Below are positions 34,823-61,981 of a stretch of DNA of 64,000 nt, piece after piece. Numbering within the stretch: the first letter of the stretch is position 1; each line of letters opens with the position of its first letter. The position numbers and the translations under genes were made by a program. The DNA lies in the NCBI GenBank assembly GCA_002010305.1, contig MTND01000009.1, forward strand, positions 18,805 to 82,804. Direction: 5' to 3'. This DNA is from Archaeoglobi archaeon JdFR-42 (GTDB lineage Archaea > Halobacteriota > Archaeoglobi > Archaeoglobales > JdFR-42). The notes under the pieces were generated by a model. It was given only the letters and a program-made list of their open reading frames with translations. It ran no database searches and was not told the origin of the DNA.

Positions 34823-35641
34823 TCATATATCATAGTCATCCACTCCCACTTCCTTACTATATTTAAAATTTTCGGTTCCTTCCTTAAGAGACCTCACTTT
34901 TCTCCTTAACACAGGAGCTGCTGACTCACCATACTTTTCTATTATTCTCACCAAAATACTGCCAGCAACCACTCCGTCGGCCCCTGACATAATCATTTTC
35001 CTGACATCCCGTCTCTCCGTTATCCCAAACCCAACACATACTGGTGTATGCCCTATGGTTTTCTTTATCTCCCGGATTTTCGATCCCACCAGAGCAGATG
35101 GGCTTGAACCTGTTGTTCCATAGGTAGAAACTAGATAAATAAAGCCCGTTGAATACTCTGAGATCTCTTTCAATCTATCTTCAGGTGTATTTAAAGCAGC
35201 AAGCATTATGTTCTCAATTTCATGTTCTTTACTCAGCATACTCACTTCTTCTATCTCCTCGACTGGAATATCCACTATCAACAACCCATCTAGGCCTGAT
35301 TTTTCTGCTTTTGAGAAAAATTCTTCCAGACCTATTGTAAAAATAGGATTACAGTAGCTCATGAGAACTACAGGTATGTTTATACTCTTTTTCACTTCTT
35401 TCACGAAGGCAAGAATTTCAGGTAACCGTACATTGGAGATAAGAGCTCTCCGGTAAGAAGACTGGATTACAGTACCGTCTGCCATCGGATCTGAAAAAGG
35501 CACTCCTAACTCTACCACATCAGCTCCACCATCTGCAATAGCCTTTATATACCTGAAACTCCATTCAAAATTGGGATCTCCTGCCGTGATAAATGCAATG
35601 AGACTTTTTCTCTTTTCTATGGTTTTTCTGATCGAAGCCAT
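34823..35641 (-). CDS. trpA: tryptophan synthase alpha chain
   Basis: ELGVPFSDPMADG and GFGI motifs. Confidence 0.9.
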   Translation of the reverse strand: MASIRKTIEKRKSLIAFITAGDPNFEWSFRYIKAIADGGADVVELGVPFSDPMADGTVIQSSYRRALISNVRLPEILAFVKEVKKSINIPVVLMSYCNPIFTIGLEEFFSKAEKSGLDGLLIVDIPVEEIEEVSMLSKEHEIENIMLAALNTPEDRLKEISEYSTGFIYLVSTYGTTGSSPSALVGSKIREIKKTIGHTPVCVGFGITERRDVRKMIMSGADGVVAGSILVRIIEKYGESAAPVLRRKVRSLKEGTENFKYSKEVGVDDYDI

Positions 35642-35650
35642 TTTTTACCC

Positions 35651-36832
35651 TCATTTCATATTACCTGATCCAATTACCATTTCCAGATCCTTATCTCCCC
35701 TACCAGAAAGACATATAACCACTTTCTCATTATTTCCCATACTCTTTGCGAGCTTAAGAGCGTAATACAGAGCATGAGACGATTCAAGAGCGGGAATAAT
35801 ACCCTCCAGCCTAGACAATAGATGAAAAGCTTTCAGTGCATCTTTGTCACATACAGATACAACTTCCATTCTTCCGCACTCTTTCAGGAAAGCAAGTTCA
35901 GGTCCAACACCTGGATAATCAAGACCTGCTGCGATACTGTGGGTTTCACAAATCTGCCCATCATGCTGGAGAAAATACGAGTACATTCCATGGAATACCC
36001 CCTTCTCTCCTTCACAAAGAGTTGCTGCGCCTTTTTTGCCGTCTCCGCCTGCTTCAACTCCAATCAGTCTTACACTTTCATCAAGAAAAGGATGGAAAAA
36101 ACCAATGGCATTACTTCCTCCCCCTACACATGCCACAAGTACATCCGGGTGTGCCATTTTTTTCTTAACTTCCTGGCCTATGATAGATTGAAAATCCCTT
36201 ACAATAGTGGGATACGGATGAGGACCAACAACAGAGCCAATGAGATAATGGGTTGTTTCAAAGCTGGCAACCCAGTCTTTCAGGGCCTGATTAATAGCCT
36301 CTTTCAGCGTCATGGAACTTTCTCTTACCACATGAATCTTAGCCCCCAGTAACTTCATTCTGAAGACGTTTGTATTCTGGCGTTCGACATCCTTCGCACC
36401 CATATAAATTTCAGTTTTCAATCCAAACAGAGCTCCAACCATCGCTACTGCAGTTCCATGCTGTCCTGCTCCAGTCTCAGCAATTATCCGATTCTTTCCC
36501 ATTTTGAGAGCGAGTAATGCCTGACCGATGGCATTGTTAATCTTGTGGGCACCTCCATGCAAGAGGTCTTCTCTCTTGAGATAAATCTCCGCACCACCAC
36601 TTATTTTCGTGAGATTTCTTGCAAGAGTTAAAGGAGTTGGTCTGCCAGCGTACTCTTTCAGACAGCTCTTGTATAGCCTCCAGAATTCTCGATTCTTTTT
36701 TACCTTCTCATATTCCCTTATGAGCTCTCTCAGAGGCTGAATGAGAGGTTCTGGGACATAATATCCACCAAATTTACCAAATTTTCCAGATGTACCATAT
36801 TTGGTATATTTATTAATCTCTTTCACCACCAT
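35651..36832 (-). CDS. trpB: tryptophan synthase beta chain
   Basis: [12 protein letters not shown]-lysine motif and GGGSNAIG. Confidence 0.95.
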
Positions 36833-36853
36833 ATTCTTCTTCTTTCTATTCCG

Positions 36854-37435
36854 TCACCTTATGTATTCGTTATACCAGTTCTCCATAAGCAGAAATCCCT
36901 GCGGGGATAGAACGCTTTCTGGATGAAACTGAACTCCCTCCAGTGGACGATTTTTATGTCTTAATGCCATAATTATTCCATCTGAAGTTCTAGCAGAAAC
37001 TTCCATAATTCGGGGTGGATTTTCTACAACTAGTGAGTGATACCTCCCAACCCTCATGGGTTCTGGCAATCCTTTGAAAATTGTTTTTCTATCATGAAAT
37101 ATCTTAGAGATCTTTCCATGAACCGGGCCAGATGGACTTAACTTTATTTCGGCGCCATATGCAAATCCAAGAGCTTGATGCCCCAGACATATACCCAGTA
37201 TCGGAATTTCTACTAGATTTTTAATGATCTCTATACAGCTTCCTACATCCCTTTTCCGTCGTGGTGTACCTGGTCCTGGAGAGATTACCACTCCCTTCAG
37301 ATTGCTGAATCTCTTCTCAAGAAAGGCTGAAGTAATAATGTTGGACACCACTTTCACATCTGATTCTATTCTGGATAAATATTCCACCAGATTCCATACA
37401 AAGGAGTCCTTGTTATCTACAACTACCACGGTCAT
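36854..37435 (-). CDS. trpG: anthranilate synthase component II (glutamine amidotransferase)
   Basis: GICLGHQ catalytic Cys motif and the HPES His-Glu. Confidence 0.9.
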   Translation of the reverse strand: MTVVVVDNKDSFVWNLVEYLSRIESDVKVVSNIITSAFLEKRFSNLKGVVISPGPGTPRRKRDVGSCIEIIKNLVEIPILGICLGHQALGFAYGAEIKLSPSGPVHGKISKIFHDRKTIFKGLPEPMRVGRYHSLVVENPPRIMEVSARTSDGIIMALRHKNRPLEGVQFHPESVLSPQGFLLMENWYNEYIR

Positions 37436-37451
37436 TTCATAATCCCCAATT

Positions 37452-38846
37452 TTATAACCCCAGAGCTTTTTTTAACCCCATCATCTTATGTTCTGTCTCG
37501 CGGTATTCTTTCTCCGGGACAGAATCTGCCACAATACCTGCTCCTGCCCTTAGAGTAGCAATCTTCCTTTCAGAATCGTAAATACAGGTTCTAATCGCTA
37601 TAGCAAAGTCTGCATTTCCATTAATTGAGAAATAACCCACTGTTCCACCATATATTCCTCTAGGGGAGTTTTCAAGGCTGTTAATGAGCTCAATGGCCCT
37701 CAGTTTTGGTGCTCCTGTTACTGTCCCTGCTGGAAAGCCAGCTTCTACTGCATCGAACTGATCCTTGTTGTTGTCAAGCTCCCCTTCCACCATACTTTCA
37801 ATATGCTGGACGTGAGAATATTTTACTACTTGCATAAAATCTCTCACTCTGACACTTCCGGGCTTCGAAACCTTTCTGACATCATTTCTAGCCAGATCAA
37901 CAAGCATTACATGTTCTGCTCTCTCTTTCTCATTTTCCAGTAGCTTTCTGGCAAGTTCTTCATCTTCTTTGCTGTTTCTCCCCCTTGGACAGGTTCCAGC
38001 TATAGGATTTATGATCACTTTCCCATTATGAACACTCACCAAGGTCTCAGGACTTGATCCAAAAATATACAGAGGGTTAAAGTCGAGGAAAAACATGTAG
38101 GGGCTTGGATTTAACAACCTGAGCCTGTTATATACATCTCTTATGTTTCCTTCGTAATAAAAATCCAGTTTCCTGGAAATAACAAGCTGAAAAACATCTC
38201 CTTTCATTATGTAATCTCTGGCTTTTTCCACTTTTTCTACAAACTCTAGTTTTTCCATATCTCCTGAAACAAAACGACAGACTTCTTTTTTTGGTTTACC
38301 CTCAGACTTTCTGAACACTCCAAGAATATCTGAATTTCTGTCTGTGAATTCAACGATAAACATCTTTTTCAAAACATGATCCAAAACAACGACTTTATCA
38401 TAGAAGGCGAAATCAGCAAATATCTTTCCCCCTGTACCTTTTCCACTTTCTCCTATCATCAAGCTGGCAGTGTCGTGGGAAATATATCCAACAAGACCTC
38501 CGAGGAAAACCGATGTTTCTAGGCTGATAGAAGGTAACGATACAGGCTTTATCCCTTCCACCATACAGTTCATCACAGCTCTTAATATGGAGAATGGATT
38601 TCCAGTTGAATGATTCAGAGAATCAAGGATTCGTTCTTCAATAGAGGTCTCCCCAACCATCGTTACACCTCTTTCACCAATTTTTATCCTGAAGAGAGGG
38701 TTTCCTCCAACAAAAGTAAACCTACCTTTCTTATTCATCTTCTCTCTAGACTCTAGAATAAATGGGAGATCTGTCATCCTAAATCTCTCATACACATCAA
38801 TTTCCTTCATGTAAGGTCTTTCTGTGATTCTAATCGTAAAATTCAA
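37452..38846 (-). CDS. trpE: anthranilate synthase component I
   Basis: GTVTGAPK and the chorismate-binding C-terminal domain. Confidence 0.9.
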
Positions 38847-39519
38847 AACTTTTCACCTCCCTGACGAACTCAGAGACTTTTTGCCTGTTTTTACGTCCTC
38901 TAATTTCCACCCCTGACGAGACATCTACTCCAGCAGGACGCAGGAAGAGAGCTTGTTGGACATTCTCCGGATTTAATCCACCTGCCAGAATTACCGGAAT
39001 ACTGCTTCCCTGAATTACTTCCCGGCTGACCCTCCAATCATGAGGTATACCAGTTCCTCCTTCCAAGAGATCTGTATCCAAGACAAGACCATCTACCTCA
39101 TATATTTGCTGCAAAAAGAGGAGCTTTTTTGCCTCAATTTCTGGATTTTCAGCTTTTATCGGGACTTTCAGTACTTTGAAAATCTTTCCTGAAAAATCCT
39201 CTTTTATCTTCTCTACTTCCTCAGACGTAATATCTCCGTGAAGCTGAATTGCATCTGGTTTTATATGCTCGATGATCCTAATAATCTCCTCTGAAGATGT
39301 TGAGGTAGTGACAAAGAAACTAGTCAGCCCATTACCTCTTGCCATAGATATCAGTTCTCTCGCTTTATTTGCTGTGATTCTCCTTTTAGAGTTCACCTTT
39401 CCAACTACAAACCCAATTCCGTCCACACCACTCTGAGTAAGGAGTTCAATATCCTTTTCCTCTTTGATTCCACAAATTTTGATAAAAACCTGGTCTTTCA
39501 GAATTTCAAACACGTCCAC
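38830..39519 (-). CDS. trpF: phosphoribosylanthranilate isomerase
   Basis: KICGI start, QLHG, and position within the trp operon. Confidence 0.85.
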   Translation of the reverse strand: MDVFEILKDQVFIKICGIKEEKDIELLTQSGVDGIGFVVGKVNSKRRITANKARELISMARGNGLTSFFVTTSTSSEEIIRIIEHIKPDAIQLHGDITSEEVEKIKEDFSGKIFKVLKVPIKAENPEIEAKKLLFLQQIYEVDGLVLDTDLLEGGTGIPHDWRVSREVIQGSSIPVILAGGLNPENVQQALFLRPAGVDVSSGVEIRGRKNRQKVSEFVREVKSFEFYD

Positions 39520-40522
39520 ACCTCAATCTCCTATAATATGCCATAACTCTTTTCACGTGTTTCAACACTGTACCATCCTCAAAACCGTGTCTGCATGCTT
39601 CAATCCCATCTTCTATACTCTGAACTCTTTCAGCAGCATAAAGAGCCATTCCAGCGTTTATGAGTATAAAATCTCTGATTGGGCCCTCTTTATTGGAAAA
39701 AGCATCCAAGATGACTCTCTTATTATACCTACTGTCTCCTCCAGCAACCTCTGTGAGTTTTCTTCTCTCAAATCCAAAGTCTTCTGGCTGTATAGCATAG
39801 CTATCAACACAATTCCTCACTTCATACACCTGAGTTGCCTCTGCTATAGATACCTCATCCAGTCCAGAGCCATGTACTACAATACCCCTAATACCCAGCA
39901 TCAGCATCGATTCGGCTAGGATCTTGCATAGATGTGGGCTATAAACACCAATAAGCTGATAATCTGGTTCCACAGGATTGGATAATGGTCCCAGGATATT
40001 GAAGATAGTAGGTATCTTCAAAATTTTGCGTACTCCTGCAACTCTGGACATAGTTCGATGGATCAAAGGGGCGTACAGAAAAGAGAGACCAGCTTCCTGG
40101 AGAGTTAGATTCACCATCTCGGATGTCAGGGAAGGATGAATCCCTAATTCTTTCAGTAAATCTGCACTTCCACACCTTGATGTTATACCAGAGTTTCCAT
40201 GCTTGGCAACCGGAATAAAGCATGATAAAACGAGGGCTGATGCAGTGCTCACATTTATTGTATTCAGGCCATCTCCTCCTGTACCACATGTGTCCGCAAC
40301 ATGCATGGAGACCTCTATCTTTCCCGCCATATGCCTTAGTGCTCTTGCAAATCCTGTGACTTCTTCTGAAGTGATCTGTTTAGTCTGTAAGGCTGAAAGG
40401 ATGGCTGCCACTTCAACATCACTTGCATATACCATTTGCCTTAAAAGCTGGTCAGCTTCATCTACTCCCAGATCCTCTCCTGACATCAGTTTGTTTAATG
40501 CTAGAGAAATGCTTGAAACCAT
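39506..40522 (-). CDS. trpD: anthranilate phosphoribosyltransferase
   Basis: DTCGTGGDG and KHGN motifs. Confidence 0.9.
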   Translation of the reverse strand: MVSSISLALNKLMSGEDLGVDEADQLLRQMVYASDVEVAAILSALQTKQITSEEVTGFARALRHMAGKIEVSMHVADTCGTGGDGLNTINVSTASALVLSCFIPVAKHGNSGITSRCGSADLLKELGIHPSLTSEMVNLTLQEAGLSFLYAPLIHRTMSRVAGVRKILKIPTIFNILGPLSNPVEPDYQLIGVYSPHLCKILAESMLMLGIRGIVVHGSGLDEVSIAEATQVYEVRNCVDSYAIQPEDFGFERRKLTEVAGGDSRYNKRVILDAFSNKEGPIRDFILINAGMALYAAERVQSIEDGIEACRHGFEDGTVLKHVKRVMAYYRRLRCGRV

Positions 40523-41199
40523 TATATCGCCTCCACAAAAGATCTTACAGTCTTTTCCGGGTTACTAGCTAGCATAAAGGCTGTTCCAACAAGTATGCCA
40601 TCTACAACTTTCATGACCTCTCTAACATCGGATATAGAGCCTATTCCACTCTCACTGATAAGGATAGATGATTTTGGGACAAACTTCGAGAGTAAGAGAG
40701 TTCTAGAGATATCACCGTCATCCTTTTCCAGCTTTGTAATGTCCCTATTGTTTATGCCAATAAGCTTTGCATGATACTTTTTCGCAATATCAATATCATC
40801 CTTGCAACTGGTTTCTACCAGACCAGCAATACCATAATCGTGACAGTAATCAAGCATGATCCCCAGTCTGTCTTTTACCATGCCTGCGAGGAACAGGACA
40901 GCATCAACTCCACAATCCACACTGTCATCGATATCTTGTATATCCAGAATGAAGTCTTTTCTTAACACAGGTAAGTTGCTCACTGAACACAAATCTTTGA
41001 GAAGTCTCATATCCCCACCAAAAAATCTGCTCTCAGTTATATACGAAATTGCTCTTGCGCCTCCTTTTTCATATGCATCCAGAAGTGTAAAAGGGTCTCT
41101 CCCCCTCATCAGATCTCCATATTTTGGGGATCTCGGTTTGATCTCAGCAATCACCGCATTGGCGCCATTGTCTATACTGAGAGCTCGAATAAACCTCAT
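40522..41199 (-). CDS. trpC: indole-3-glycerol-phosphate synthase
   Basis: IAEIKPRSP and LRKDF motifs. First gene of the trp run. Confidence 0.85.
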   Translation of the reverse strand: MRFIRALSIDNGANAVIAEIKPRSPKYGDLMRGRDPFTLLDAYEKGGARAISYITESRFFGGDMRLLKDLCSVSNLPVLRKDFILDIQDIDDSVDCGVDAVLFLAGMVKDRLGIMLDYCHDYGIAGLVETSCKDDIDIAKKYHAKLIGINNRDITKLEKDDGDISRTLLLSKFVPKSSILISESGIGSISDVREVMKVVDGILVGTAFMLASNPEKTVRSFVEAI

Positions 41200-41611: not shown

Positions 41612-42109
41612 ATGTGGGATCGAATCAAGAGTAAATTTGATAAGTACCCTTCAAGGATGGAAGTAGCCAAAGAATTTCTGAGACTGGGCATTTCGGTCAG
41701 AGATGGAAAAGCCTGGTGTGGCAATATTGAATTAACACCGTCTAAAATAGCCAGAACCCTTGGAGTAGACAGAAAAGTAGTTCTTTCAACTATTCAGATT
41801 ATTGAACGTGATGAAGTCCTCAAAAAGGTATATTCTCTTATAAAACCCATCGCATATATTGGAGATGTGGCCCAACTTTTTGACTTTGGGGTACTGGAGA
41901 TATATGCAGAATCTGAAAAAAGCGGTATTGTTGGAAGTATTGCAGGGATACTTGGGAAAGAGGGTATATCCATTCGGTTTATAATAGCAGAAGACCCTGA
42001 GTTGAGTATTGACCCTAAACTCACCATTGTTACAGAAAAAAGAGTGCCGGGTCGAATTATAGACCAGTTACTAAAAGTCAATGGAGTGAAAAAAATTGTG
42101 GTTTCCTGA
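41612..42109 (+). CDS. ACT-domain putative regulator of amino-acid metabolism (N-terminal DNA-binding-like region + ACT)
   Basis: 165 aa. The N-terminal half is HTH-like (PSKIARTLGVDRKVVLSTIQ). The C-terminal half has an ACT pattern (LEIYAESEKSGIVGSIAGILGKEGISIR). It is divergent from the trp operon. Confidence 0.65.
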   Translation: MWDRIKSKFDKYPSRMEVAKEFLRLGISVRDGKAWCGNIELTPSKIARTLGVDRKVVLSTIQIIERDEVLKKVYSLIKPIAYIGDVAQLFDFGVLEIYAESEKSGIVGSIAGILGKEGISIRFIIAEDPELSIDPKLTIVTEKRVPGRIIDQLLKVNGVKKIVVS

Positions 42110-42110
42110 A

Positions 42111-43286
42111 TTACCTTCTCGAGATGCTCAGCATTTCTACTGTGAAAGCTATGAAGGAGAGCAACAGAATTATCCCTCCTACCATCACTACATATGCCGT
42201 TAAAGGCTGAAGAACGAACAGTATTATACCTGCATTTGTTGAATATAAAAGAGTTCTGGCTAGTTTTGCATTGTACATATCCTTGATCATAGGAACATCC
42301 TGAACTCCAAGTTTCGTGCTGTATTTTTCAATCCAGACCATCATAGGCACTATGTGGTACATGGCACCGATAATGGTGAGAGTTATCCATCCTACCAAGA
42401 TGAAATGCACATGAAGAAACCGGAGAGGATATACAAGATTCAACAGTCCAAGAGTTACCCCAATGACGCTGTAGAATAATCCATACACAAAGAAGACTGC
42501 ACTTATGTCGACTTCATCATGATCTCCCGGCTGAAAGTATGAGCGCACCATATTGTAGAAGAATAGATAAAAAGATACAACAAAGATAGAGCCGGATAAA
42601 ATCAGATAACTTCTGTCGAAAGTGAATGCCAAGAACATTCCCACCAAGCCGACATTAGAGAGCCAAAATTGCCATTTAGCTAAGGTAAGAGAATGGAGCT
42701 TTTTGAGAGCCAGCATTGGCAATAATTCATGGAGACCACCCATGGTAGTTATAACAACCCATCCAATAACAAGCAAGTGGGCATGAGCTAGAACGTTAAA
42801 AGGTACAATCCCCAATCTAGATAACACAACCAGGATGACACCCACAATAAAGTATATAATAGCAGCAACAAAGAACCAACCAGCTGGGCTCATTTTATGC
42901 CATCCTTTCACCCTGAATACTGTGTCAAAAATCATGTAAGCAAAGATAATAGATGCAAGGGCAAAAATCGTTCCAAAGAGTTTCAAAAGGCCGTAATTAT
43001 ACAGGAATGCGAAAAACATACCCATAATACCAATGTTAGACAACCAGAATTGAAGATCAGGCAACCTAGAAAAACGAAGATTGACCCCTAGGAAAGTGGG
43101 AACTATCTGGTACATGGCTCCCATGATTGTCAGAGAGACAAAACCAAGAAGCATCAAATGAACATGAGCAGCTCTGAATTCAGGCTTTAAAGTTACAATG
43201 ATCCCGAAAATAGCTCCCACAACCAAGTAGAATAAAGACGTGATTAGGAATCTCAGCGGTAATTTTTTGTATAGAACATTTTCCAT
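42111..43286 (-). CDS. 12-TM histidine-rich membrane protein with a threefold internal repeat (possibly NnrS-like or heme-copper-oxidase-subunit-I-like; family not assigned)
   Basis: 391 aa. HVHLMLLGFVSLTIMGAMYQIVP (res 41-63), HAHLLVIGWVVITTMGGLHELLP (168-190) and HVHFILVGWITLTIIGAMYHIVP (292-314). Also QFWLSNIGIMGMFFAF (79-94) versus QFWLSNVGLVGMFLAF (206-221). Confidence 0.6.
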   Translation of the reverse strand: MENVLYKKLPLRFLITSLFYLVVGAIFGIIVTLKPEFRAAHVHLMLLGFVSLTIMGAMYQIVPTFLGVNLRFSRLPDLQFWLSNIGIMGMFFAFLYNYGLLKLFGTIFALASIIFAYMIFDTVFRVKGWHKMSPAGWFFVAAIIYFIVGVILVVLSRLGIVPFNVLAHAHLLVIGWVVITTMGGLHELLPMLALKKLHSLTLAKWQFWLSNVGLVGMFLAFTFDRSYLILSGSIFVVSFYLFFYNMVRSYFQPGDHDEVDISAVFFVYGLFYSVIGVTLGLLNLVYPLRFLHVHFILVGWITLTIIGAMYHIVPMMVWIEKYSTKLGVQDVPMIKDMYNAKLARTLLYSTNAGIILFVLQPLTAYVVMVGGIILLLSFIAFTVEMLSISRR

Positions 43287-43314: not shown

Positions 43315-43479
43315 TTAGATGTATTGCTCTAGTTCTTTGATCAGCTTACCTGTATCAAGATTTTTTTGTTGAGCATGCTTTTCCAGACTCAAATTCCCTC
43401 CACAGCAGTCACAGATTCCATATTTTAAGAGAATTTGTTTTAAATTTGGATACGACCGCAGAACTTCTGAAAGAGTCAT
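43315..43479 (-). CDS. DUF1858-type small redox-disulfide domain protein
   Basis: MTLSEVLRSYPNLKQILLKYGICDCCGG... The ATG at 43479 begins 2 nt after the upstream stop. The ORF-track start at 43506 would overlap it. Confidence 0.65.
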   Translation of the reverse strand: MTLSEVLRSYPNLKQILLKYGICDCCGGNLSLEKHAQQKNLDTGKLIKELEQYI

Positions 43480-43480
43480 G

Positions 43481-43999
43481 TCAGGTCTGATTTTCATTTT
43501 TTTCACGCTCCTTACGAATGTATTTTCTAAGATCAGGAAGTGGTCTACTGAGAGCCTCTTTTACCTTCATCACTTCCATAATCTTTTCGTATTTTTCATC
43601 TCCAACACATTTCTTTGCGTACTCACACCACTCAATACAGCTATCTATATCAAAGATTATCTCTCTTCCACAATTGTCACACGTTCCCTTTATCTCATCC
43701 GTCCACCGTTCCACTTCAGCACCACAGTCAGGACAGTTAACTATCTCCAACTTTGGCCTGAGAATGGTGGCAGCCCCAGGACATCTTCCCGGAACAATCT
43801 CAGGTTTGCGAATCTCCAGTTTCACATAATCTCCCTGCTGAGTAGTAGTCACAGAATAACCTTCATCCTTTAATCGTTTAATAAGAGGAGTAGGCTCTGT
43901 TTCTATGATCACATCTAGCTCTTCAGATTCCCTCAGTTTTTCAAAGATAAGAGGGTACTTCTCTTCTCTTTTCAGATTCCTGACATCCAGAACTTCCAT
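43481..43999 (-). CDS. DUF2249 domain fused to an 8-cysteine zinc-ribbon-like C-terminal domain
   Basis: N-terminal LDVRNLKREEKYPLIFEKL ... DVIIETEPTPLI (DUF2249 pattern). The C-terminal Cys pattern is C-x16-C-x2-C-x14-C-x2-C-x10-C-x3-C-x5-C. Confidence 0.6.
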   Translation of the reverse strand: MEVLDVRNLKREEKYPLIFEKLRESEELDVIIETEPTPLIKRLKDEGYSVTTTQQGDYVKLEIRKPEIVPGRCPGAATILRPKLEIVNCPDCGAEVERWTDEIKGTCDNCGREIIFDIDSCIEWCEYAKKCVGDEKYEKIMEVMKVKEALSRPLPDLRKYIRKEREKNENQT

Positions 44000-44003
44000 G
44001 ACC

Positions 44004-44201
44004 TCACCTTCGGATTTCTACCCTCCAGTGATCTTCTTCTTTAATACTCTTGCATGAATATCCTTTCTGGGTAAGCATCTGGATGAGAGGAACAGGATTT
44101 ACTTCTACGATCAAATCCAATTCCCCTTCTTCCTCAAGCTTCTGTATGACGAGAGGAGGCCTCTCAGGATGAGGTATTTTTCTGACATCAAGGGTTGTCA
44201 T
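44004..44201 (-). CDS. DUF2249 domain protein
   Basis: 65 aa. LDVRKIPHPERPPLVIQKLEE ... LIVEVNPVPLI. Confidence 0.65.
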   Translation of the reverse strand: MTTLDVRKIPHPERPPLVIQKLEEEGELDLIVEVNPVPLIQMLTQKGYSCKSIKEEDHWRVEIRR

Positions 44202-44480
44202 CTAAACCTCCTTCAACATTTCTTCAACTTCTTTATCCCGTATGTAGTCTACTACTTTGATCTCTATTTCCTTCGCTCCCGCTTCCCTTACTGCCTTTTT
44301 AATGGCCACTGCCAGTTGCATTCCAATAGGACAGAAAGGACTGGAAGGTTTGAAGGTTAGCTTAACCAAATCTCCATCCACTGTCAGATCCTCTATGAGA
44401 CCCATATCATACACACTCTGAGCTGTATGAGGGTCCATCACATTTTTTAATTTTTCAATTACTTCTTCTTGTGTTACCAT
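44202..44480 (-). CDS. DUF59 / MIP18-family Fe-S assembly-related protein
   Basis: VMDPHTAQSVYDMGLI ... SSPFCP motif. AGGTGAT lies 5 nt upstream of the ATG. Confidence 0.7.
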   Translation of the reverse strand: MVTQEEVIEKLKNVMDPHTAQSVYDMGLIEDLTVDGDLVKLTFKPSSPFCPIGMQLAVAIKKAVREAGAKEIEIKVVDYIRDKEVEEMLKEV

Positions 44481-44767
44481 CTATATCACCTGTAATACTT
44501 TTATATCTACCACATAATTAAGATATTCCCTTATATGTCAGGTAGAAACAGGCTAGGAGTGAGTATTCTAACCCCCAGAATATGTTTACCCCTCCCCCCA
44601 TAATAGTGAGAGGTACTACCACTTTATTTCTGCAAAGTACTATATCACAAACGAGTCAAGCTTACAATTTTCATAGAGAATGATTATAAAAATATAGAAG
44701 AGAGGATTATCCATTAATGAATTTTTTGCTTTCATTTCTCACAAAAGGAAGTCTCCTAACCTCTATT

Positions 44768-52263: not shown

Positions 52264-53174
52264 CAAAATTCAATTTTTTCATACTCTTTTTTTAGTGTAA
52301 TTCCTTTTAAATCTTCGGGGTACATGGCAACATAGTTTCCCACTTTGATTATACAGGCTTTTACACCCATCTGTTTAGCTCTTTCAAAACCATTTTTTAA
52401 GGCCTCTTTCTGCTCTTCCTTGGTTAACTTTCCTACTCTCACCACTATTTCTTCTCTTGGAATGTCCGTCAATGGTTGTAATACTCCTGCTTTTACCTTC
52501 TTAATAGCCGGTGAATCCACAGAGACTGAATTACCGATTACTGTCGCAAAAGCATCTGCCATAGAAGCAGAGTTTTCAATGCAAGTTACTGCATCAGCTA
52601 TTCCTTTAGTAAAACTTCTCCCCCCAAACCCACTGGTACAAATCCCTCCAGCTACTTTCTCATCACTTATGGGCGGTTCTATTTCCAAATAACCAAAATG
52701 TGTTCCTGAGGCATCAATTAGCCCAACTATCAGTTTACTCGCCTTAAAAGCTATGTCACCATAGTTATTGACCACGATTTTATCCAGTCCGTTCTCCCCC
52801 AGTTCTTCCAGCTCTTTGACCATGAGTTCAGCAATACTTCCTGCCACGGCAGCCATTGGAGTGATTGGTTCACCACTCTTTCTCCAGACTGTTTGAGCTG
52901 CTCTGAACATCATTGCTACCACATCTGGTACATCTCTCCGCAATTCTTCCGGTTCTCTTTCTTCAACCCATCTGAAAAGGAGATCTTTGTGAGATGAGAC
53001 TTCCGATAATAGCTTTACCGCTTTCAATACGCATTTATCCATCACTTCTTCCGTGAAAATACTTCTATTTTCTTTTTCTGCCGTAATAACCAGACCCATA
53101 GGACCCAAGTAAATGTGCAATCTTCCACGGGCATCTATAAAAGTATTCAGATCATTATAATCTCTCAATTTCAT
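52260..53174 (-). CDS. UPF0280 / ApbE-like family protein
   Basis: ICTSGFGGRSFTKGIADAV and ADAFATVIGN resemble the ApbE motifs (ATSG.Y, AKG.A.D, ADA.sTA). 304 aa. Confidence 0.55.
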   Translation of the reverse strand: MKLRDYNDLNTFIDARGRLHIYLGPMGLVITAEKENRSIFTEEVMDKCVLKAVKLLSEVSSHKDLLFRWVEEREPEELRRDVPDVVAMMFRAAQTVWRKSGEPITPMAAVAGSIAELMVKELEELGENGLDKIVVNNYGDIAFKASKLIVGLIDASGTHFGYLEIEPPISDEKVAGGICTSGFGGRSFTKGIADAVTCIENSASMADAFATVIGNSVSVDSPAIKKVKAGVLQPLTDIPREEIVVRVGKLTKEEQKEALKNGFERAKQMGVKACIIKVGNYVAMYPEDLKGITLKKEYEKIEFC

Positions 53175-54894
53175 GTTCTCTCAAAAATTTGCTTAATGGA
53201 GTTACATTCTTAAGATGTCCTCCTATCCGGATAAATACATCTTTAGGCATGGTGTACTCCATAGGGGCAACTGTAGCTGGTGTGGGTATGTATGTGAACG
53301 GTCTCTCACCCATCACCTTTTCAACGTCCACATAGAAGTTTATTCCCCCTCCCGGTAATATGAAAGCCTTTGCTCCCCCTACAGTTACTTTTATTTCACC
53401 TTTATGCACTGCTTCAGTCACTGCTAGAGGGTTATTTGCTATACCGGCTCGAGCGCTACCTCCAACCCCTCCGCAGTAAAGGGCCGATACCTTAGCCTTT
53501 TCACAGTTTTTAGAGATGGTTTTAACAACATCCAATGCCTTTTTATCCGGTTCAATTTCCTTTAAATTCTTTTTTTCTAAGATAAACACGGAAATATGAT
53601 CGCCTGTTGTATCTGTAACAAGAATTCTCATTCCGTCCCAGGCTTGATCAAAATCGATAGATCGGATTGCATCTCTTGGATCTTTTACAGGGGTTCCACC
53701 GATTCCATCTCCATGTTCACCAAAATACCTCCCGTCTGTGCTCTTAATTCCAAAAGGAACTACACCAGAATATTTCATCCCCAAGAACTTGCCTGCTGAA
53801 TGTTCTGAAAGTAGACCAGTTATATGAGAATCCAGCACTATTACCTCATCAGCCACTTCTTTCAACAGGGGTGCAAACATGGCTATTACGGCACTTCCAC
53901 ATCCAAGACGCATTCTTTTAATAACTTCTCCATTGATGACCGGAGGTTTACCAATCTTCACACTCACTTTCACTCTCTTTCTCCCGACTCTGAGTTCCAC
54001 TTCTTCTCCGTTGGCTATTTCAACAACAGTCCTAGCAGCAGTAATTCCATTTTTACCCTGGAATACATTTACCCCACCGATATCTATCATTTTAGAACCA
54101 TATTCCTCTGTAACGATCATACCTACCTTTTTCCCATTTCTGTAAACAGCCTCACCTTCTTCACCGATGAACTCATCCGTGTCAATCTTCAACTTTAATA
54201 AACTAAAACTGAGAGGTGTAGCAGAAACAACGGTAACCACATCCACATCTTCTACAGTGTCCTCAACTATCACAGGAGCAGGAACAAAACATGGCTGAGT
54301 ATTGCCAGCACCAACCCCAGTAACCAGCGGTAAATCTGGAGTTTTCTCTGAGGGAACCGCGATTTTCCTGGCAAGGACTAATGAACCATTCAAATTTTTA
54401 TATCTCAGACAAGCTCCCAGATCTCCTTCTTTAATCTGACAGTTAACAGGACAGTAAGAACATATCACACCCTCAGAGGGATGAATTGAGATAGCATTTT
54501 TGGGACAAACCTTAACACATGTATTACAGTCGACGCAGATGGATGGATTTACATATGCCCTATCTTCTCCAAGGGAAATCGCTTTTTTCGGACACTCCTG
54601 TACACAGACTCCACATTTATTGCAGACATCTGAAACTACAGCATCTCCGCCTCCAATGGGTGGAACAATAACAACAGAATCCCCTTCCTGTATCTCCTCT
54701 GATTCAAAATCTTTCCAGATTACTTTACCATTGATCATAACCCTCGCATGCAACCCCCGTTCGAAAAGAGAATATTTTTCGTTCAGCGTATCAATGAGTT
54801 CCTGAACGGTACCTGTGTATAAGCTTATTATTTCTTTATCTTTTCCAGTTACATCCCTGATATTCGCCAGATATGTTACCCTGATCTCTTTCAT
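53155..54894 (-). CDS. MoaD/ThiS-like domain + 2x[4Fe-4S] ferredoxin domain + third Cys cluster + large uncharacterised catalytic domain (possibly 6-hydroxynicotinate-reductase-like)
   Basis: Residues 1-83 fit a MoaD pattern ending PPIGGG. Then CNKCGVCVQECP, CVDCNTCVKVCP and CSYCPVNC-x9-C. About 410 aa follow with no motif I recognise. Confidence 0.55.
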   Translation of the reverse strand: MKEIRVTYLANIRDVTGKDKEIISLYTGTVQELIDTLNEKYSLFERGLHARVMINGKVIWKDFESEEIQEGDSVVIVPPIGGGDAVVSDVCNKCGVCVQECPKKAISLGEDRAYVNPSICVDCNTCVKVCPKNAISIHPSEGVICSYCPVNCQIKEGDLGACLRYKNLNGSLVLARKIAVPSEKTPDLPLVTGVGAGNTQPCFVPAPVIVEDTVEDVDVVTVVSATPLSFSLLKLKIDTDEFIGEEGEAVYRNGKKVGMIVTEEYGSKMIDIGGVNVFQGKNGITAARTVVEIANGEEVELRVGRKRVKVSVKIGKPPVINGEVIKRMRLGCGSAVIAMFAPLLKEVADEVIVLDSHITGLLSEHSAGKFLGMKYSGVVPFGIKSTDGRYFGEHGDGIGGTPVKDPRDAIRSIDFDQAWDGMRILVTDTTGDHISVFILEKKNLKEIEPDKKALDVVKTISKNCEKAKVSALYCGGVGGSARAGIANNPLAVTEAVHKGEIKVTVGGAKAFILPGGGINFYVDVEKVMGERPFTYIPTPATVAPMEYTMPKDVFIRIGGHLKNVTPLSKFLREHEIERL

Positions 54895-56735
54895 GAGACT
54901 AAACCCAGTTCTTTAAGTTTTTCTTTATGTGGTATGCCATTTTCACTCCATCCTCTTAAACGGTAATATTCATCTAGCATGACTTCCAGTTCTACCACCT
55001 GATTTAAGGCTCCTTTGCTGGGATTGGGCTCATGGGTAAACCTTTTAGGAAGGGTATCATCTTTTCTTGTTACACCATGCTTAACAAGATACATTCTTTC
55101 AAGATTGATTATTCTTTCCCCTATGACCATCAGATCCTTCTCAGTAAATCTCACTCCCGTAGCAAAGGTTAACAATCTCGCCATATGCTCTACTGAAAAC
55201 CCATAAATAAGGTTGGTCATGAATTCACAAATTCCAAGAGAATCTGCCAGAGCTGCCACATGCTCACTCCATATTACTAACTTGGCCTTTCCTTCCACGG
55301 CAAATCTGTCAGAGGCTTTTTCTGTTCCAAACATCTCTTTTGCTCTTTCTGGTGGAAAGGCATACTCTGCTGTTGGAAGAGCCCTCAAATGATCGCCACC
55401 TCGACTTGCAACAGCATATCCAAGACCATAAGCTTTTTTTCCTCTTGGATCCGAAGCACAATGTAACAGCCCCTTTGTATGGATTACAAATTCTTCCCCA
55501 CCCAGCTTTTTTGCGGCTTCATAAGCTCCCTCAGCTAGGATGTCACCGAACCCTTCCCGATGAGCAATCATATCTACAAGGCGAATGATGGAGTCACTAT
55601 CTCCCCATTTAAGCTCAAAACCCACTGTTTTTTTATCTATAATGCCTTTTTCGTAAGCCTCCAGAGCCCAGCTCACCGTTCTAGAGGTGGTTATAACATC
55701 CAGTCCAAGCTTGTTCAGCATAGTATTGAGATATAGCACTGCCTCAGGATCTGATATCCCACATCCTGATCCAAAACCTCCAGTTTGCTCATATTCAGGC
55801 CCCTCACCATATGTTTTATACTTACCATCTTTCACCACATAAAAATGACTGCAATGGATGTAACACATATAGCAACCTTTACTCTTGGTTATATATTTAT
55901 CCAGCAATGTTTCAGCGCTTAAATTTTCAGCAAATTCAAAATCCCCTCTTTGACTGTTATAGGTATTCAGCCACCCCTGTTCATTGGCTATCATTAATAG
56001 GGCTGGAGTTCCGTATGTCGAAAGGCTTCGAGCCATAGGATCAGTCAGTATATCATCTCTGGTTGCAAGAGCTTCTTCAAGGAATTTATCAGGATCATAC
56101 AGACTCACACCTTTCGTCCCTCTAACCACAACACCCTTGAGATTCTTTGAGCCCATCACAGCACCCATGCCACATTTTCCTGCTGCTCTAGACAGGTTAC
56201 TCAGAACACATGCAGTTTTAACAAGATTTTCTCCAGCAGGTCCTATCACAAGTGTTTGGGCTTCTATATCGGTCTCTTCCCTGAGAATTCTATCGGTTTC
56301 CCAGACATTCTGGCCCCATATGTGATTGGCATTTCTTATCTCAATATCATCATCCCTGATTGAGATGTAACAGGGCGTTTTTGCCTTACCTGTCACAATA
56401 AGATGGTCATAGCCAGCAAATCTGAGCTCTGGTCCAAAGTGCCCTCCACTATTTCCATCACAGAGCATTCCATTTATCGGAGACTTTGAGGTGACTGTCC
56501 ATCTGCCTGAAGAAGGAGCGAATGTTCCTCCAAGGGGACCTGTTCCTACAATAAAGGGATTTTCTTCACTGAATGGATGTGTATTCTCATCTGTAAGGTC
56601 ATAAAGTAACTTCGAGTTTCCACCTCGTCCACCTAGAAAATTCAGCCTGATGTCTTCGGGCGTTGGATATACCTTGACATTACCTGATGAAAGGTCCACT
56701 TTGACAATTCTTCCACTCCACCCATAAATATTCAT
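54891..56735 (-). CDS. aor: aldehyde:ferredoxin oxidoreductase family tungsto/molybdopterin enzyme
   Basis: GWSGRIVKVDLSSG start and the LGGRGG motif. 614 aa with typical AOR layout. Confidence 0.85.
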   Translation of the reverse strand: MNIYGWSGRIVKVDLSSGNVKVYPTPEDIRLNFLGGRGGNSKLLYDLTDENTHPFSEENPFIVGTGPLGGTFAPSSGRWTVTSKSPINGMLCDGNSGGHFGPELRFAGYDHLIVTGKAKTPCYISIRDDDIEIRNANHIWGQNVWETDRILREETDIEAQTLVIGPAGENLVKTACVLSNLSRAAGKCGMGAVMGSKNLKGVVVRGTKGVSLYDPDKFLEEALATRDDILTDPMARSLSTYGTPALLMIANEQGWLNTYNSQRGDFEFAENLSAETLLDKYITKSKGCYMCYIHCSHFYVVKDGKYKTYGEGPEYEQTGGFGSGCGISDPEAVLYLNTMLNKLGLDVITTSRTVSWALEAYEKGIIDKKTVGFELKWGDSDSIIRLVDMIAHREGFGDILAEGAYEAAKKLGGEEFVIHTKGLLHCASDPRGKKAYGLGYAVASRGGDHLRALPTAEYAFPPERAKEMFGTEKASDRFAVEGKAKLVIWSEHVAALADSLGICEFMTNLIYGFSVEHMARLLTFATGVRFTEKDLMVIGERIINLERMYLVKHGVTRKDDTLPKRFTHEPNPSKGALNQVVELEVMLDEYYRLRGWSENGIPHKEKLKELGLVS

Positions 56736-59284: not shown

Positions 59285-59310
59285 TTCACCATTCTCATGT
59301 ATTAAAAAAT

Positions 59311-60456: not shown

Positions 60457-60457
60457 C

Positions 60458-61885: not shown

Positions 61886-61981
61886 AACATCACCCGATAA
61901 AGGATAACCATTTATCACACATCAATAATGTTAAATAAACCTTTTTATTTTTCAATCTAATAAGTAAAGGGATAGGAGCAT

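What the first reader, a model, noticed from the sequence alone, without database searches (positions are those of the whole stretch)
42111..43286. 12-TM membrane protein built from three sequence-detectable 4-TM repeats, each carrying an HxH-...-G-x-x-[YH]-x-x-x-P motif
The motif H-[VA]-H-hhhhG-[FW]-[VI]-x-hT-hhG-[AG]-h-[YH]-x-[IL]-[VL]-P occurs at residues 41-63, 168-190 and 292-314, a period of about 125 aa. A second block, QFWLSN[IV]G[IL][MV]GMF[FL]AF, repeats at 79-94 and 206-221. Heme-copper oxidase/NOR catalytic subunits also have 12 core helices with pseudo-threefold symmetry and an HxH pair on helix X. Their repeats, however, are not recognisable at the sequence level, and they carry the helix VI/VII CuB histidines that are missing here. 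NnrS-type heme/copper proteins are of similar size. A six-histidine triplicated 4-helix protein could be a minimal or ancestral-like metal or heme membrane scaffold.
Basis: partly seen in the sequence, partly recalled or inferred. Interest (0 to 1): 0.7.

Follow-up and report, generated by a model that had tools for sequence, protein, structure and literature searches.

The report
Copper-less oxidase-fold protein with three repeats
This archaeal membrane protein has the fold of the respiratory oxidase catalytic subunit, but it is built from three still-recognisable copies of one four-helix unit, each keeping a histidine pair, so it probably holds up to three hemes and no copper; the architecture was already described in 2014, and databases wrongly call the protein a cbb3 oxidase subunit.

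Summary
**Observation: confirmed.** The ORF 42111-43286 (minus strand, 391 aa) carries the HxH motif at residues 41-63, 168-190 and 292-314, exactly as described. The three 4-helix units are clearly homologous: Smith-Waterman z is 15-23 and hhalign E is 1e-37 to 1e-43.

**What it is.**
- It belongs to the heme-copper oxidase (HCO) superfamily. Pfam COX1 scores 79.7 bits. The AlphaFold model (pLDDT 95.8) matches cbb3 CcoN with TM-score 0.8.
- It is not an oxidase. The helix-VII His-His copper ligands and the partner subunits are missing.
- H41, H170, H292 and H294 align with the real heme b, CuB and heme b3 ligands of CcoN.
- H43 and H168 have no oxidase counterpart, yet they are the most conserved histidines across relatives.
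- Histidines are kept or lost in pairs (43+168, 170+292, 41+294). This points to three symmetric sites between units, most likely bis-His heme b sites.
- The all-six-histidine form was found only in archaea (Archaeoglobaceae, Hydrothermarchaeota).

**Context.** It is the last gene of a conserved five-gene operon: DUF59, DUF2249, DUF2249 with a zinc ribbon, the N-domain of the RIC/ScdA iron-centre repair protein, and this protein. The context suggests an NnrS-like role in handling NO or iron centres.

**Novelty.** The "HCO-homology" concept (Pei et al. 2014) already describes this architecture. Novelty is therefore modest, and nothing here has been shown biochemically.

The parts
42111..43286 (-). 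Gene for the 391-aa, 12-helix HCO-homology protein made of three 4-helix units. Databases name it 'cbb3-type cytochrome oxidase subunit 1'.
   Evidence: ORF. Pfam COX1 79.7 bits. AlphaFold2 pLDDT 95.8. Foldseek best hits are cbb3 CcoN, TM-score 0.77-0.81. Database names.
42906..43286 (-). Unit 1 (residues 1-127, helices I-IV).
   Evidence: Repeat alignments. Matches COX1 profile positions 308-404.
42534..42905 (-). Unit 2 (residues 128-251, helices V-VIII).
   Evidence: Matches COX1 profile positions 343-400.
42114..42533 (-). Unit 3 (residues 252-391, helices IX-XII). It has a longer loop between helices X and XI.
   Evidence: Matches COX1 profile positions 346-399.
43098..43166 (-). Helix II motif HVHLMLLGFVSLTIMGAMYQIVP (residues 41-63). 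H41 aligns with the heme b ligand H60 of CcoN. H43 has no oxidase counterpart (CcoN has N62) but is near-invariant in relatives.
   Evidence: motif. (collinear profile alignment to 3mk7_A). (H43 present in 198 of 207 relatives).
42717..42785 (-). Helix VI motif HAHLLVIGWVVITTMGGLHELLP (residues 168-190). H168 aligns with Y205 of CcoN and is near-invariant in relatives. H170 aligns with the CuB ligand H207 of CcoN.
   Evidence: H168 in 190 of 207, H170 in 103 of 207.
42345..42413 (-). Helix X motif HVHFILVGWITLTIIGAMYHIVP (residues 292-314). H292 and H294 align with H345 (heme b3) and H347 (heme b) of CcoN.
42291..42335 (-). Conserved loop W318-P332 (WIEKYSTKLGVQDVP) after helix X. It is predicted to face the cytoplasm. 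W318, G327 and P332 are invariant even in distant bacterial relatives. It is a candidate docking surface for the soluble partners (inference).
   Evidence: Invariant columns in alignments A2 and A3. Topology inferred from the HCO fold and the positive-inside rule (sequence).
43315..43497 (-). 60-aa stand-alone ScdA_N/DUF1858 protein. It corresponds to the N-domain of the RIC/ScdA/YtfE iron-centre repair proteins and keeps the CCGG motif. A 63-aa form is possible from the GTG at 43506.
   Evidence: Pfam ScdA_N 41.2 bits. Aligns to ScdA 9r7j_A residues 7-57. Gene call of 60 aa in L001.
43481..43999 (-). 172-aa protein: an N-terminal DUF2249 domain followed by a C-terminal Cys-rich zinc-ribbon-like domain.
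   Evidence: Pfam DUF2249 30.8 bits plus weak zinc-ribbon hits. Only weak zinc-ribbon matches in the PDB. Conserved next to the target in archaeal loci.
44004..44201 (-). 65-aa DUF2249 protein.
   Evidence: Pfam DUF2249 35.7 bits. Synteny.
44202..44480 (-). 92-aa DUF59 / FeS_assembly_P protein, the first gene of the operon.
   Evidence: Pfam PF01883 52.4 bits. Adjacent to the target's relatives in 50 of the 59 genome loci, archaeal and bacterial.
44499..44506 (-). TATA-like ATATAAAA about 20-25 nt upstream of the DUF59 start codon. It is a possible archaeal promoter for a five-gene, nearly leaderless operon. This rests on sequence reading only.
   Evidence: Sequence. The genes abut or overlap, and a GGAGG lies before the target's ATG.

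Best explanation
**What it is.** The gene encodes a copper-less member of the heme-copper-oxidase superfamily, a three-unit 'HCO-homology' protein. It is not a cbb3 oxidase subunit. Twelve helices form three homologous 4-helix units around a pseudo-threefold axis.

**How the histidines are arranged.** The second helix of each unit (helices II, VI and X) carries HxH near the outer membrane face. On a helix the two histidines point to opposite sides. Each helix can therefore serve two pockets, as helix X does in real oxidases. This gives three equivalent pockets between units:
- Site C: H294 + H41. This is the low-spin heme site of oxidases.
- Site B: H292 + H170. This corresponds to the oxidase catalytic-heme proximal ligand plus the helix-VI CuB histidine.
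- Site A: H43 + H168. This pocket is empty in oxidases.

**Likely cofactors (inferred).** Each site most likely binds one b-type heme through two histidines. That would give up to three hemes at one depth in the membrane and no CuB or FeB.

**Likely function (inferred).** The protein is made from a five-gene operon with small cytoplasmic proteins: DUF59, two DUF2249 proteins and the N-domain of RIC/ScdA. The most likely role is NnrS-like. The hemes would bind or turn over membrane-dissolved NO (or O2). Through the conserved cytoplasmic loop, the protein would work with its partners to protect or repair iron and Fe-S centres in an anaerobic hydrothermal archaeon.

**Shown versus inferred.** Shown: the repeat, the fold, ligand-position homology, pairwise conservation of the histidines and the conserved operon. 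Inferred: heme as the ligand, the 3:1 stoichiometry and the NO/iron-centre function.
For: **Fold and family.**
- Pfam COX1 scores 79.7 bits, above the cut-off, and all three units hit the helix IX-XI part of the profile.
- The AlphaFold2 model has pLDDT 95.8.
- Foldseek aligns the full length to cbb3, bo3, aa3 and NOR subunit I, with TM-score up to 0.81.
- The A1 profile hits CcoN in the PDB at E=2.5e-24.

**Ligand mapping.**
- The collinear alignment to P. stutzeri CcoN puts H41 on H60, H170 on H207 and H292/H294 on H345/H347.
- A NorB-like protein (L074) shows the pattern H-N-V-H-H-H at the same six columns.

**Pairing of the histidines.**
- Among 207 relatives, H43 (198) and H168 (190) are near-invariant.
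- H41 and H294 co-occur strongly: phi 0.92, and 13/3/3/149 once the six-His family is excluded.
- Some subfamilies keep only 43+168 (Campylobacterota, Aquibacillus). Aquificota keep only 170+292. Others keep 41+43+168+294.
- On a neighbour-joining tree, same-branch changes are 3-4 for each predicted pair against 0.09-0.19 expected. They are 0-1 for other pairs, except the neighbouring 168/170.

**Operon and context.**
- DUF59-DUF2249-DUF2249/Zn-ScdA_N-target recurs in different flanking contexts.
- DUF59 is adjacent in 50 of 59 genome loci, archaeal and bacterial.

**Link to NO.**
- The ScdA_N protein aligns to the N-domain of ScdA/YtfE.
- DUF2249 genes are induced under denitrification in Haloferax, and the literature links them to the HCO superfamily.
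- Crp/Fnr regulators sit next to bacterial homologues.
- A stand-alone single-unit relative lies between a NorB-like gene and a DUF1858 gene.
Against: - No cofactor has been shown.
His-His distances and pocket volumes were therefore not measured, and the three-site geometry rests on homology and symmetry.
- H170 often occurs without H292 (61 of 99 cases), so site B may not be a simple bis-His site.
- In oxidases the equivalent of H170 binds copper, not heme iron.
- The predicted hemes sit near the outer face, while all operon partners look cytoplasmic. A direct electron-transfer link between them is hard to picture.
- The functional inference rests entirely on gene neighbourhood and on NnrS literature recalled from memory.
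- The conservation statistics use related sequences and a rough neighbour-joining tree.
Confidence: 0.6

Rival explanations
1. It is what databases call it: the catalytic subunit I (CcoN) of a cbb3-type cytochrome c oxidase, or a NOR, reducing O2 or NO at a heme-copper or heme-iron centre.
For: - Sources name it 'cbb3-type cytochrome (c) oxidase subunit I'.
- Pfam COX1 is above its cut-off.
- The best structural and sequence matches are CcoN.
Against: - NCBIfam ccoN scores 53 bits against a cut-off of 583.
- The helix-VII His-His ligands of CuB/FeB fall in a CcoN insertion that is absent here.
- The protein has 391 aa, against ~470 for CcoN.
- No CcoO/CcoP, subunit II or NorC gene is in the operon.
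- The host window looks anaerobic, with AFOR and a flavodiiron protein.
Confidence: 0.03
2. Only one site carries heme: the universally conserved H43/H168 pair, as in most two-histidine HCO-homology proteins. The other four histidines of the archaeal subfamily would serve other roles, such as proton or ligand relay, metal binding or helix packing.
For: - H43 and H168 are the only near-invariant histidines across 207 relatives.
- By my recollection of the Pei et al. 2014 abstract, most three-unit HCOH proteins have two conserved histidines and one predicted heme.
- H170 often occurs without H292.
Against: - H41, H292 and H294 sit at the exact positions of real heme ligands in CcoN.
- H41/H294 and H170/H292 are gained and lost together.
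- The Aquificota subfamily keeps only H170+H292, so that pair can stand alone as a functional unit.
Confidence: 0.22
3. The histidine pairs bind metal ions (Fe, Cu, Zn, Ni) rather than heme. The protein would be a membrane metal-handling or transport protein feeding the DUF59 / RIC-like iron-centre machinery.
For: - The operon partners belong to Fe-S and iron-centre families.
- H170 is equivalent to a copper ligand.
- A review-type statement links HCO homologues to iron homeostasis and export of N-compounds.
Against: - Two histidines on different helices with no third or fourth conserved ligand make a poor metal site.
- Four of the six histidines map to heme-pocket positions of oxidases.
- No acidic or Cys/Met ligands are conserved near them in alignments A1 or A3.
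Confidence: 0.12
4. The repeat is a recent, lineage-specific internal triplication, an assembly artefact or a pseudogene, with no functional meaning.
For: The units are unusually similar for a polytopic protein: 24-31% identical here and up to 59% in P0007.
Against: - The identical protein occurs on 7 contigs from independent samples.
- Orthologues occur in 27 archaeal genome loci with all six histidines in nearly all.
- Units group by position rather than by protein: units 1 and 3 are each monophyletic, so there was one ancient triplication.
- Bacterial relatives share the same three-unit layout.
Confidence: 0.01

Closest known systems
HCO-homology (HCOH) three-unit proteins (Pei, Li, Kinch & Grishin 2014, Protein Sci 23:1220)
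   Same: - 12 helices made of three 4-helix evolutionary units, each most similar to oxidase helices IX-XII.
- No complete catalytic metal site.
- Gene-neighbourhood link to DUF2249 and to denitrification/NO genes.
- Stand-alone single-unit relatives exist.
   Different: By my recollection of the abstract, most three-unit HCOH families keep two histidines and are predicted to bind one heme. This archaeal subfamily keeps all six, as three HxH pairs. Its units are still 24-59% identical to each other. I could not read the paper, so I cannot say whether this subfamily is one of its named families.
CcoN, subunit I of cbb3-type cytochrome c oxidase (PDB 3mk7, 8smr, 9g6b)
   Same: - Same 12-helix fold, TM-score 0.77-0.81.
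- Helix II histidine, helix VI histidine and helix X HxH at aligned positions.
- Very similar helix X sequence, G-W-V..T.IGA.YH.VP.
   Different: - No helix-VII His-His, so no CuB.
- About 80 residues shorter.
- Two extra histidines (H43, H168) form a third site.
- No CcoO/CcoP partners.
- NCBIfam ccoN scores 53 against a cut-off of 583.
NorB (cNOR/qNOR catalytic subunit)
   Same: Same fold (4xyd_A and 3o0r_B, TM-score 0.66). A single-unit relative of the target sits in a NorB-like operon.
   Different: The FeB ligands (helix-VII His-His, and the glutamate of HLWVEG) are absent. There is no NorC.
NnrS (Pfam PF05940), a heme- and copper-containing 12-helix NO-response protein
   Same: Similar size and helix number. 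One distant relative (P0042) is even labelled 'NnrS protein' by a source. NnrS is the proposed functional analogy: protection of iron-dependent metabolism from NO (own knowledge).
   Different: No Pfam NnrS match, even at E<=1. The relationship was not tested with NnrS sequences here.
RIC / YtfE / ScdA di-iron repair proteins (for the 60-aa partner)
   Same: The partner matches the N-terminal ScdA_N domain, including the CCGG motif.
   Different: The hemerythrin-like di-iron domain, which carries the known chemistry, is absent. Only the N-domain is present, as a free protein.

Membership tests
Heme-copper oxidase superfamily (Pfam PF00115 COX1; subunit I fold) | Sequence match to the COX1 profile above Pfam's gathering score | tested here: met
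   79.7 bits against a 34.8 cut-off, in three stretches. Each unit alone scores 36.6, 39.6 and 25.8 bits.
Heme-copper oxidase superfamily (Pfam PF00115 COX1; subunit I fold) | 12-helix core with pseudo-threefold arrangement | tested here: met
   AlphaFold2 model with pLDDT 95.8 and 12 long helices. Full-length Foldseek alignments to cbb3, bo3, aa3 and NOR subunit I, TM-score up to 0.81.
Catalytic HCO/NOR subunit I (e.g. CcoN, NorB) | Helix II histidine (low-spin heme ligand) and helix X HxH (ligands of both hemes) | tested here: met
   H41 aligns with H60. H292 and H294 align with H345 and H347 of 3mk7_A.
Catalytic HCO/NOR subunit I (e.g. CcoN, NorB) | Helix VI histidine (CuB/FeB ligand) | tested here: met
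   H170 aligns with H207 of 3mk7_A. This shows position only; the bound metal is unknown.
Catalytic HCO/NOR subunit I (e.g. CcoN, NorB) | Helix VII His-His pair completing the CuB/FeB site | tested here: not met
   CcoN H257/H258 fall in or beside an insertion with no histidine in the query. The query region KWQFWLSNVGLVGMFLAFTFDRS has none.
Catalytic HCO/NOR subunit I (e.g. CcoN, NorB) | Curated equivalog score (NCBIfam TIGR00780 ccoN; TIGR02891 CtaD) | tested here: not met
   53.3 bits against 583.15, and 21.2 against 670.75.
Catalytic HCO/NOR subunit I (e.g. CcoN, NorB) | Electron-entry partner subunit (CcoO/CcoP, subunit II or NorC) encoded alongside | tested here: not met
   The operon partners are DUF59, DUF2249 (two) and ScdA_N. 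The same holds in relatives.
HCO-homology (HCOH) three-unit proteins (Pei et al. 2014) | Detectable homology to HCO subunit I with three 4-helix units, each resembling helices IX-XII, but without the full catalytic ligand set | tested here: met
HCO-homology (HCOH) three-unit proteins (Pei et al. 2014) | Genomic association with DUF2249, denitrification or NO-detoxification genes | tested here: met
   Synteny. The literature statement on DUF2249 and the HCO superfamily. A NorB-like neighbour of a single-unit relative.
HCO-homology (HCOH) three-unit proteins (Pei et al. 2014) | Assignment to one of the paper's named families, and their histidine count (two in most) | not testable with these tools
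   The paper is not held. Here there are six conserved histidines, not two.
NnrS (Pfam PF05940) | Match to the NnrS profile | tested here: not met
   No NnrS hit at E<=1 in Pfam for the target.
NnrS (Pfam PF05940) | Heme and copper content of the purified protein | not testable with these tools
   Needs biochemistry.

The most novel reading that the evidence does not exclude
The archaeal six-histidine subfamily would be a surviving near-symmetric form of the oxidase fold that binds three bis-His b hemes in a ring, one in each inter-unit pocket. It would preserve the state from which O2/NO reductases arose. In that scenario site C became the low-spin heme site. Site B became the catalytic heme, with its second histidine (the H170 position) recruited to CuB/FeB. 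Site A was filled in. That would make the origin of the respiratory oxidase active site experimentally testable on a living protein.
Probability: 0.25. Interest if true: 0.8.

Novelty: new member of a known kind. Interest (0 to 1): 0.45.

Why it matters
**Annotation.** The protein and its relatives are named 'cbb3-type cytochrome c oxidase subunit I' in public records. They lack the copper site and the partner subunits. Taking the name at face value would wrongly assign aerobic respiration to anaerobic Archaeoglobi and Hydrothermarchaeota genomes.

**Evolution.** This subfamily is the most symmetric version of the oxidase fold seen here. It keeps the complete HxH set. Four of its histidines align with oxidase ligands, and the other two form a third site that oxidases have lost. 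If it binds three hemes, it is a tractable model for how the heme-copper active site was built from a triplicated 4-helix heme protein.

**Physiology.** The operon is tightly conserved: DUF59, DUF2249, the RIC N-domain and this membrane protein. It links four families of unknown or poorly known function into one testable system, probably for nitrosative or oxidative damage to iron centres.

Tried and rejected
- **Model coordinates.** They are not exposed to the script environment. His-His distances and pocket geometry could not be measured, and I relied on alignment to CcoN ligands instead.
- **AFDB fold library.** It was unavailable.
- **Pei et al. 2014.** The paper could not be read by PMC id or DOI. 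Its content is cited from memory of the abstract and from papers that cite it.
- **Literature searches.** Searches for triplication or threefold symmetry of HCOs, for NnrS/DUF59/DUF2249, and for cbb3 in Hydrothermarchaeota or Archaeoglobi found nothing on this subfamily.
- **NnrS membership.** There is no Pfam hit. I had no NnrS sequence for a profile-profile test.
- **DUF4149 neighbour.** A 4-helix DUF4149 protein sits next to the Aquificota homologue. I tested whether it is a free unit of this fold; hhalign probability was below 1%, so I rejected the idea.
- **Organism identity.** The cluster look-up gave no organism or accession. Rfam found no RNA genes in the window. Taxonomy therefore rests on the nearest genome hit, an Archaeoglobaceae MAG at 59% identity.
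- **Central hexa-histidine metal site.** I rejected this because i/i+2 histidines on a helix point to opposite sides.
- **Conserved glycines below the histidines (G48, G175, G299).** I did not use these as evidence for heme. They are conserved even in subfamilies that lack the corresponding histidine.
Full report
**1. The observation**

The region 42111-43286 is one ORF on the minus strand (391 aa).

The three segments are residues 1-127, 128-251 and 252-391. They are homologous well beyond what membrane-protein composition could give:
- blastp E-values are 3e-20, 2e-12 and 1e-9.
- Smith-Waterman z-scores against 1000 shuffles are 22.7, 15.2 and 15.1. Two unrelated permeases from the same window score no better than shuffles.
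- Profile-profile comparison of the three units, built from 22 orthologues, gives probability 99.95-100% and E=1e-37 to 4e-43 over 116-119 columns. That covers all four helices of each unit.

AlphaFold2, run with a 62-sequence alignment, gives a very confident model (pLDDT 95.8, pTM 0.94) with 12 long helices.

**2. What it is**

Pfam assigns the protein to COX1 (PF00115) at 79.7 bits against a cut-off of 34.8. There are three matched stretches. When each unit is scanned alone, all three hit the same part of the profile, positions ~308-404 of 436, which is the helix IX-XI region with the HxH.

The best solved-structure matches are cbb3 oxidase CcoN chains. By sequence profile the E-value is 2.5e-24. 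By fold, Foldseek TM-score is 0.77-0.81 over the full length. bo3, aa3 and NOR subunits follow. The fold is therefore that of heme-copper oxidase subunit I.

The protein is not a catalytic oxidase:
- NCBIfam's ccoN equivalog scores 53 bits against a cut-off of 583.
- The two helix-VII histidines that complete CuB/FeB lie in a CcoN insertion with no histidine counterpart here.
- No CcoO/CcoP, subunit II or NorC gene is nearby.

**3. Mapping the six histidines**

The collinear profile alignment to P. stutzeri CcoN (3mk7_A) gives the mapping below. The roles of the CcoN residues are from my own knowledge of that structure.

| This protein | CcoN residue | CcoN role |
|---|---|---|
| H41 | H60 | heme b ligand, helix II |
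| H170 | H207 | CuB ligand, helix VI |
| H292 | H345 | heme b3 ligand, helix X |
| H294 | H347 | heme b ligand, helix X |
| H43 | N62 | none |
| H168 | Y205 | none |

A genuine NorB-like protein met later (L074) shows H-N-V-H-H-H at these six columns, which confirms the register.

The oxidase metal ligands on helices II, VI and X therefore occupy subsets of one repeated HxH position.

**4. Evidence for three paired sites**

On a helix, residues i and i+2 point to opposite sides. In oxidases, helix X uses this to ligate one heme on each side.

By the threefold symmetry, the second histidine of one unit should face the first histidine of the next. The predicted pairs are 43+168 (site A), 170+292 (site B) and 294+41 (site C). 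Conservation behaves accordingly.

- A profile search of 1.84 billion representatives finds 304 relatives at E<=1e-30 and 2076 at E<=1e-10.
- Among the 207 proteins analysed, H43 (198) and H168 (190) are near-invariant. H170 occurs in 103, H41 in 50, H292 in 44 and H294 in 54. All six occur together in 33.
- H41 and H294 co-occur with phi 0.92. With the six-histidine family excluded, the counts are 13 both, 3+3 single and 149 neither.
- Subfamilies keep whole pairs:
  - Campylobacterota and Aquibacillus keep only 43+168.
  - Aquificota keep only 170+292.
  - Some proteins keep 41+43+168+294 and have lost both 170 and 292.
- On a neighbour-joining tree of 259 proteins, parsimony puts 3-4 changes of each predicted pair on the same branch, against 0.09-0.19 expected. 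Other combinations give 0-1, except the adjacent 168/170.

These statistics use related sequences and a rough tree, but they all point the same way. I could not measure the distances in the model because coordinates are not exposed. The geometry is therefore inferred.

**5. Origin of the repeat**

Units group by position, not by protein. The nearest neighbours of each unit are the orthologous units of other species, and units 1 and 3 are each monophyletic. There was therefore one ancient triplication that predates the family, and the bacterial relatives share it.

The units have diverged unusually little: 24-31% identity here and up to 59% in P0007.

A profile of single units (A4) has invariant Y20, H41, H43, T53, G56, P63 and N84. 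It finds complete stand-alone 4-helix genes with HxH: P0214 (153 aa) and P0215/P0216 (146 and 139 aa). As trimers these would recreate the same six-histidine arrangement.

**6. Context**

The target is the last gene of a compact five-gene minus-strand operon. The order is DUF59/FeS_assembly_P, DUF2249, DUF2249 plus a Cys-rich zinc ribbon, a 60-aa ScdA_N/DUF1858 protein, then the target. The genes abut or overlap, and a GGAGG precedes the target's ATG.

The same cassette recurs next to different flanking genes. It is present in most of the 27 archaeal genome loci.

Across 59 genome loci, DUF59 is adjacent in 50. It lies upstream in archaea and immediately downstream in bacteria. DUF2249 is often upstream.

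Other context points:
- The 60-aa protein aligns with the N-domain of ScdA/YtfE iron-centre repair proteins, including CCGG.
- Bacterial clusters carry Crp/Fnr-type regulators.
- DUF2249 genes are induced under denitrification in Haloferax, and the literature ties them to the HCO superfamily.
- One stand-alone unit (P0216) lies between a NorB-like gene, which has a c-type cytochrome gene upstream, and a DUF1858 gene.

The window also encodes an aldehyde:ferredoxin oxidoreductase and a flavodiiron protein, which fits an anaerobe. The closest genome hit is an Archaeoglobaceae MAG at 59% identity. The six-histidine form was found only in Archaeoglobaceae, Ferroglobus, Geoglobus, Hydrothermarchaeota and unclassified euryarchaeal MAGs.

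**7. Mechanism**

Shown:
- the oxidase fold;
- three homologous units;
- histidines at real ligand positions;
- pairwise conservation of the histidines;
- no helix-VII copper ligands;
- a conserved operon with cytoplasmic proteins related to iron centres.

Inferred:
- Each pair ligates one b heme, giving up to three hemes at one depth near the outer face, as for hemes a and a3 in oxidases.
- The protein binds or turns over membrane-dissolved NO or O2. It cooperates with DUF59, DUF2249 and the RIC N-domain protein in protecting or repairing iron centres, an NnrS-like role. The coupling may run through the invariant loop W318-P332, which is predicted to be cytoplasmic.

Weak points:
- No cofactor data exist.
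- H170 is frequently present without H292.
- The predicted hemes and the partners are on opposite sides of the membrane.

**8. Comparison with what is known, and novelty**

The closest described concept is the 'HCO homology' (HCOH) proteins of Pei, Li, Kinch and Grishin (2014). By my recollection of the abstract, it covers:
- 4-helix evolutionary units most similar to helices IX-XII;
- free single-unit proteins proposed to trimerise;
- three-unit 12-helix families, including NnrS, most with two conserved histidines and one predicted heme;
- links to denitrification and NO detoxification.

The reference's existence, and its link to DUF2249 and to the trimer-like HCO topology, are confirmed. The paper itself could not be read.

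The present protein fits that kind. It differs in keeping all six histidines, in its strikingly similar units, and in the ScdA_N partner. I cannot tell whether this subfamily is among the paper's named families. I therefore file it as a new member of a known kind. It is experimentally uncharacterised and mis-annotated as a cbb3 oxidase subunit.

**9. Verdict**

Interest is moderate (0.45). A specialist would recognise the published framework.

The near-symmetric six-histidine form, and the finding that the family's most conserved pair occupies the pocket that oxidases leave empty, are still worth an experiment. The most novel reading not excluded is a three-heme, ancestor-like precursor state of the oxidase active site (probability about 0.25).

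Noticed in passing
L074:1-2661 (groundwater metagenome contig): The gene order is: a c-type cytochrome (two CxxCH motifs), a 440-aa NorB-like subunit (HLWVEG and GTGHHYYW motifs), a 139-aa stand-alone single 4-helix unit with HGH (P0216), and a 65-aa DUF1858 protein. A free unit of this fold therefore sits inside a NOR-like operon.
   Followed up: partly
L061, L064-L072 (Aquificota loci), e.g. L065:5875-7020: This bacterial subfamily has lost H41, H43, H168 and H294. It keeps only H170+H292 (plus H311, and D at position 294), which is the pair equivalent to the oxidase catalytic-heme pocket. Its neighbours differ (DUF4149 and a cupin, no DUF59).
   Followed up: partly
window 17577-18770 (-): A flavodiiron protein (ODP metallo-beta-lactamase domain plus flavodoxin), a known O2/NO-scavenging enzyme type, is encoded 24 kb from the operon.
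   Followed up: no
window 41612-42109 (+) and 34823-41199 (-): A TrpY-family regulator (NCBIfam 184.8 bits) lies convergent to the target's 3' end; its stop codon is 1 nt from the target's. Beyond TrpY, on the minus strand, lies a complete trp operon (trpC, D, F, E, G, B, A). The TrpY adjacency is shared with the 58%-identical relative in L006, but the trp operon is not.
   Followed up: partly
P0007 / P0008 (Hydrothermarchaeota; L027, L005): In these orthologues the three units are 40-59% identical to each other, far more than in the window protein (24-31%). The cause is not resolved; it could be slower divergence, stronger symmetry constraint or gene conversion between repeats.
   Followed up: partly
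L007:5530-5772 and L035, L038-L040: In Hydrothermarchaeales the Cys-rich zinc-ribbon C-terminal half of the window's 172-aa DUF2249 protein occurs as a separate ~80-aa gene. A PCP_red/CGGC protein precedes the cassette (L005, L007).
   Followed up: no
window 42111-43286, residues Y59-Q60/N84, H186-E187/N211 and Y310-H311/N345: Each unit has a conserved polar cluster toward the cytoplasmic half of its bundle: Tyr plus Gln/Glu/His on the second helix, and Asn on the third. Q206 of the QFWLSN block aligns with the H of CcoN's VHFWAL segment on helix VII. These clusters could be polar paths to each pocket; this is unexplained.
   Followed up: no
window 53155-56735 (-): An aldehyde:ferredoxin oxidoreductase gene is followed by a 579-aa protein with an N-terminal ThiS-like domain and 4Fe-4S ferredoxin domains. 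Further on are a URO-D-family gene, a CCG-domain protein and an FAD-linked oxidase (57241-61918). This is typical of anaerobic Archaeoglobi-like metabolism.
   Followed up: no
Public records of P0001, P0003, P0008, P0012, P0016, P0017: Source annotations call these copper-site-less proteins 'cbb3-type cytochrome c oxidase subunit I'. The name could mislead metabolic reconstructions of anaerobic archaeal MAGs.
   Followed up: yes
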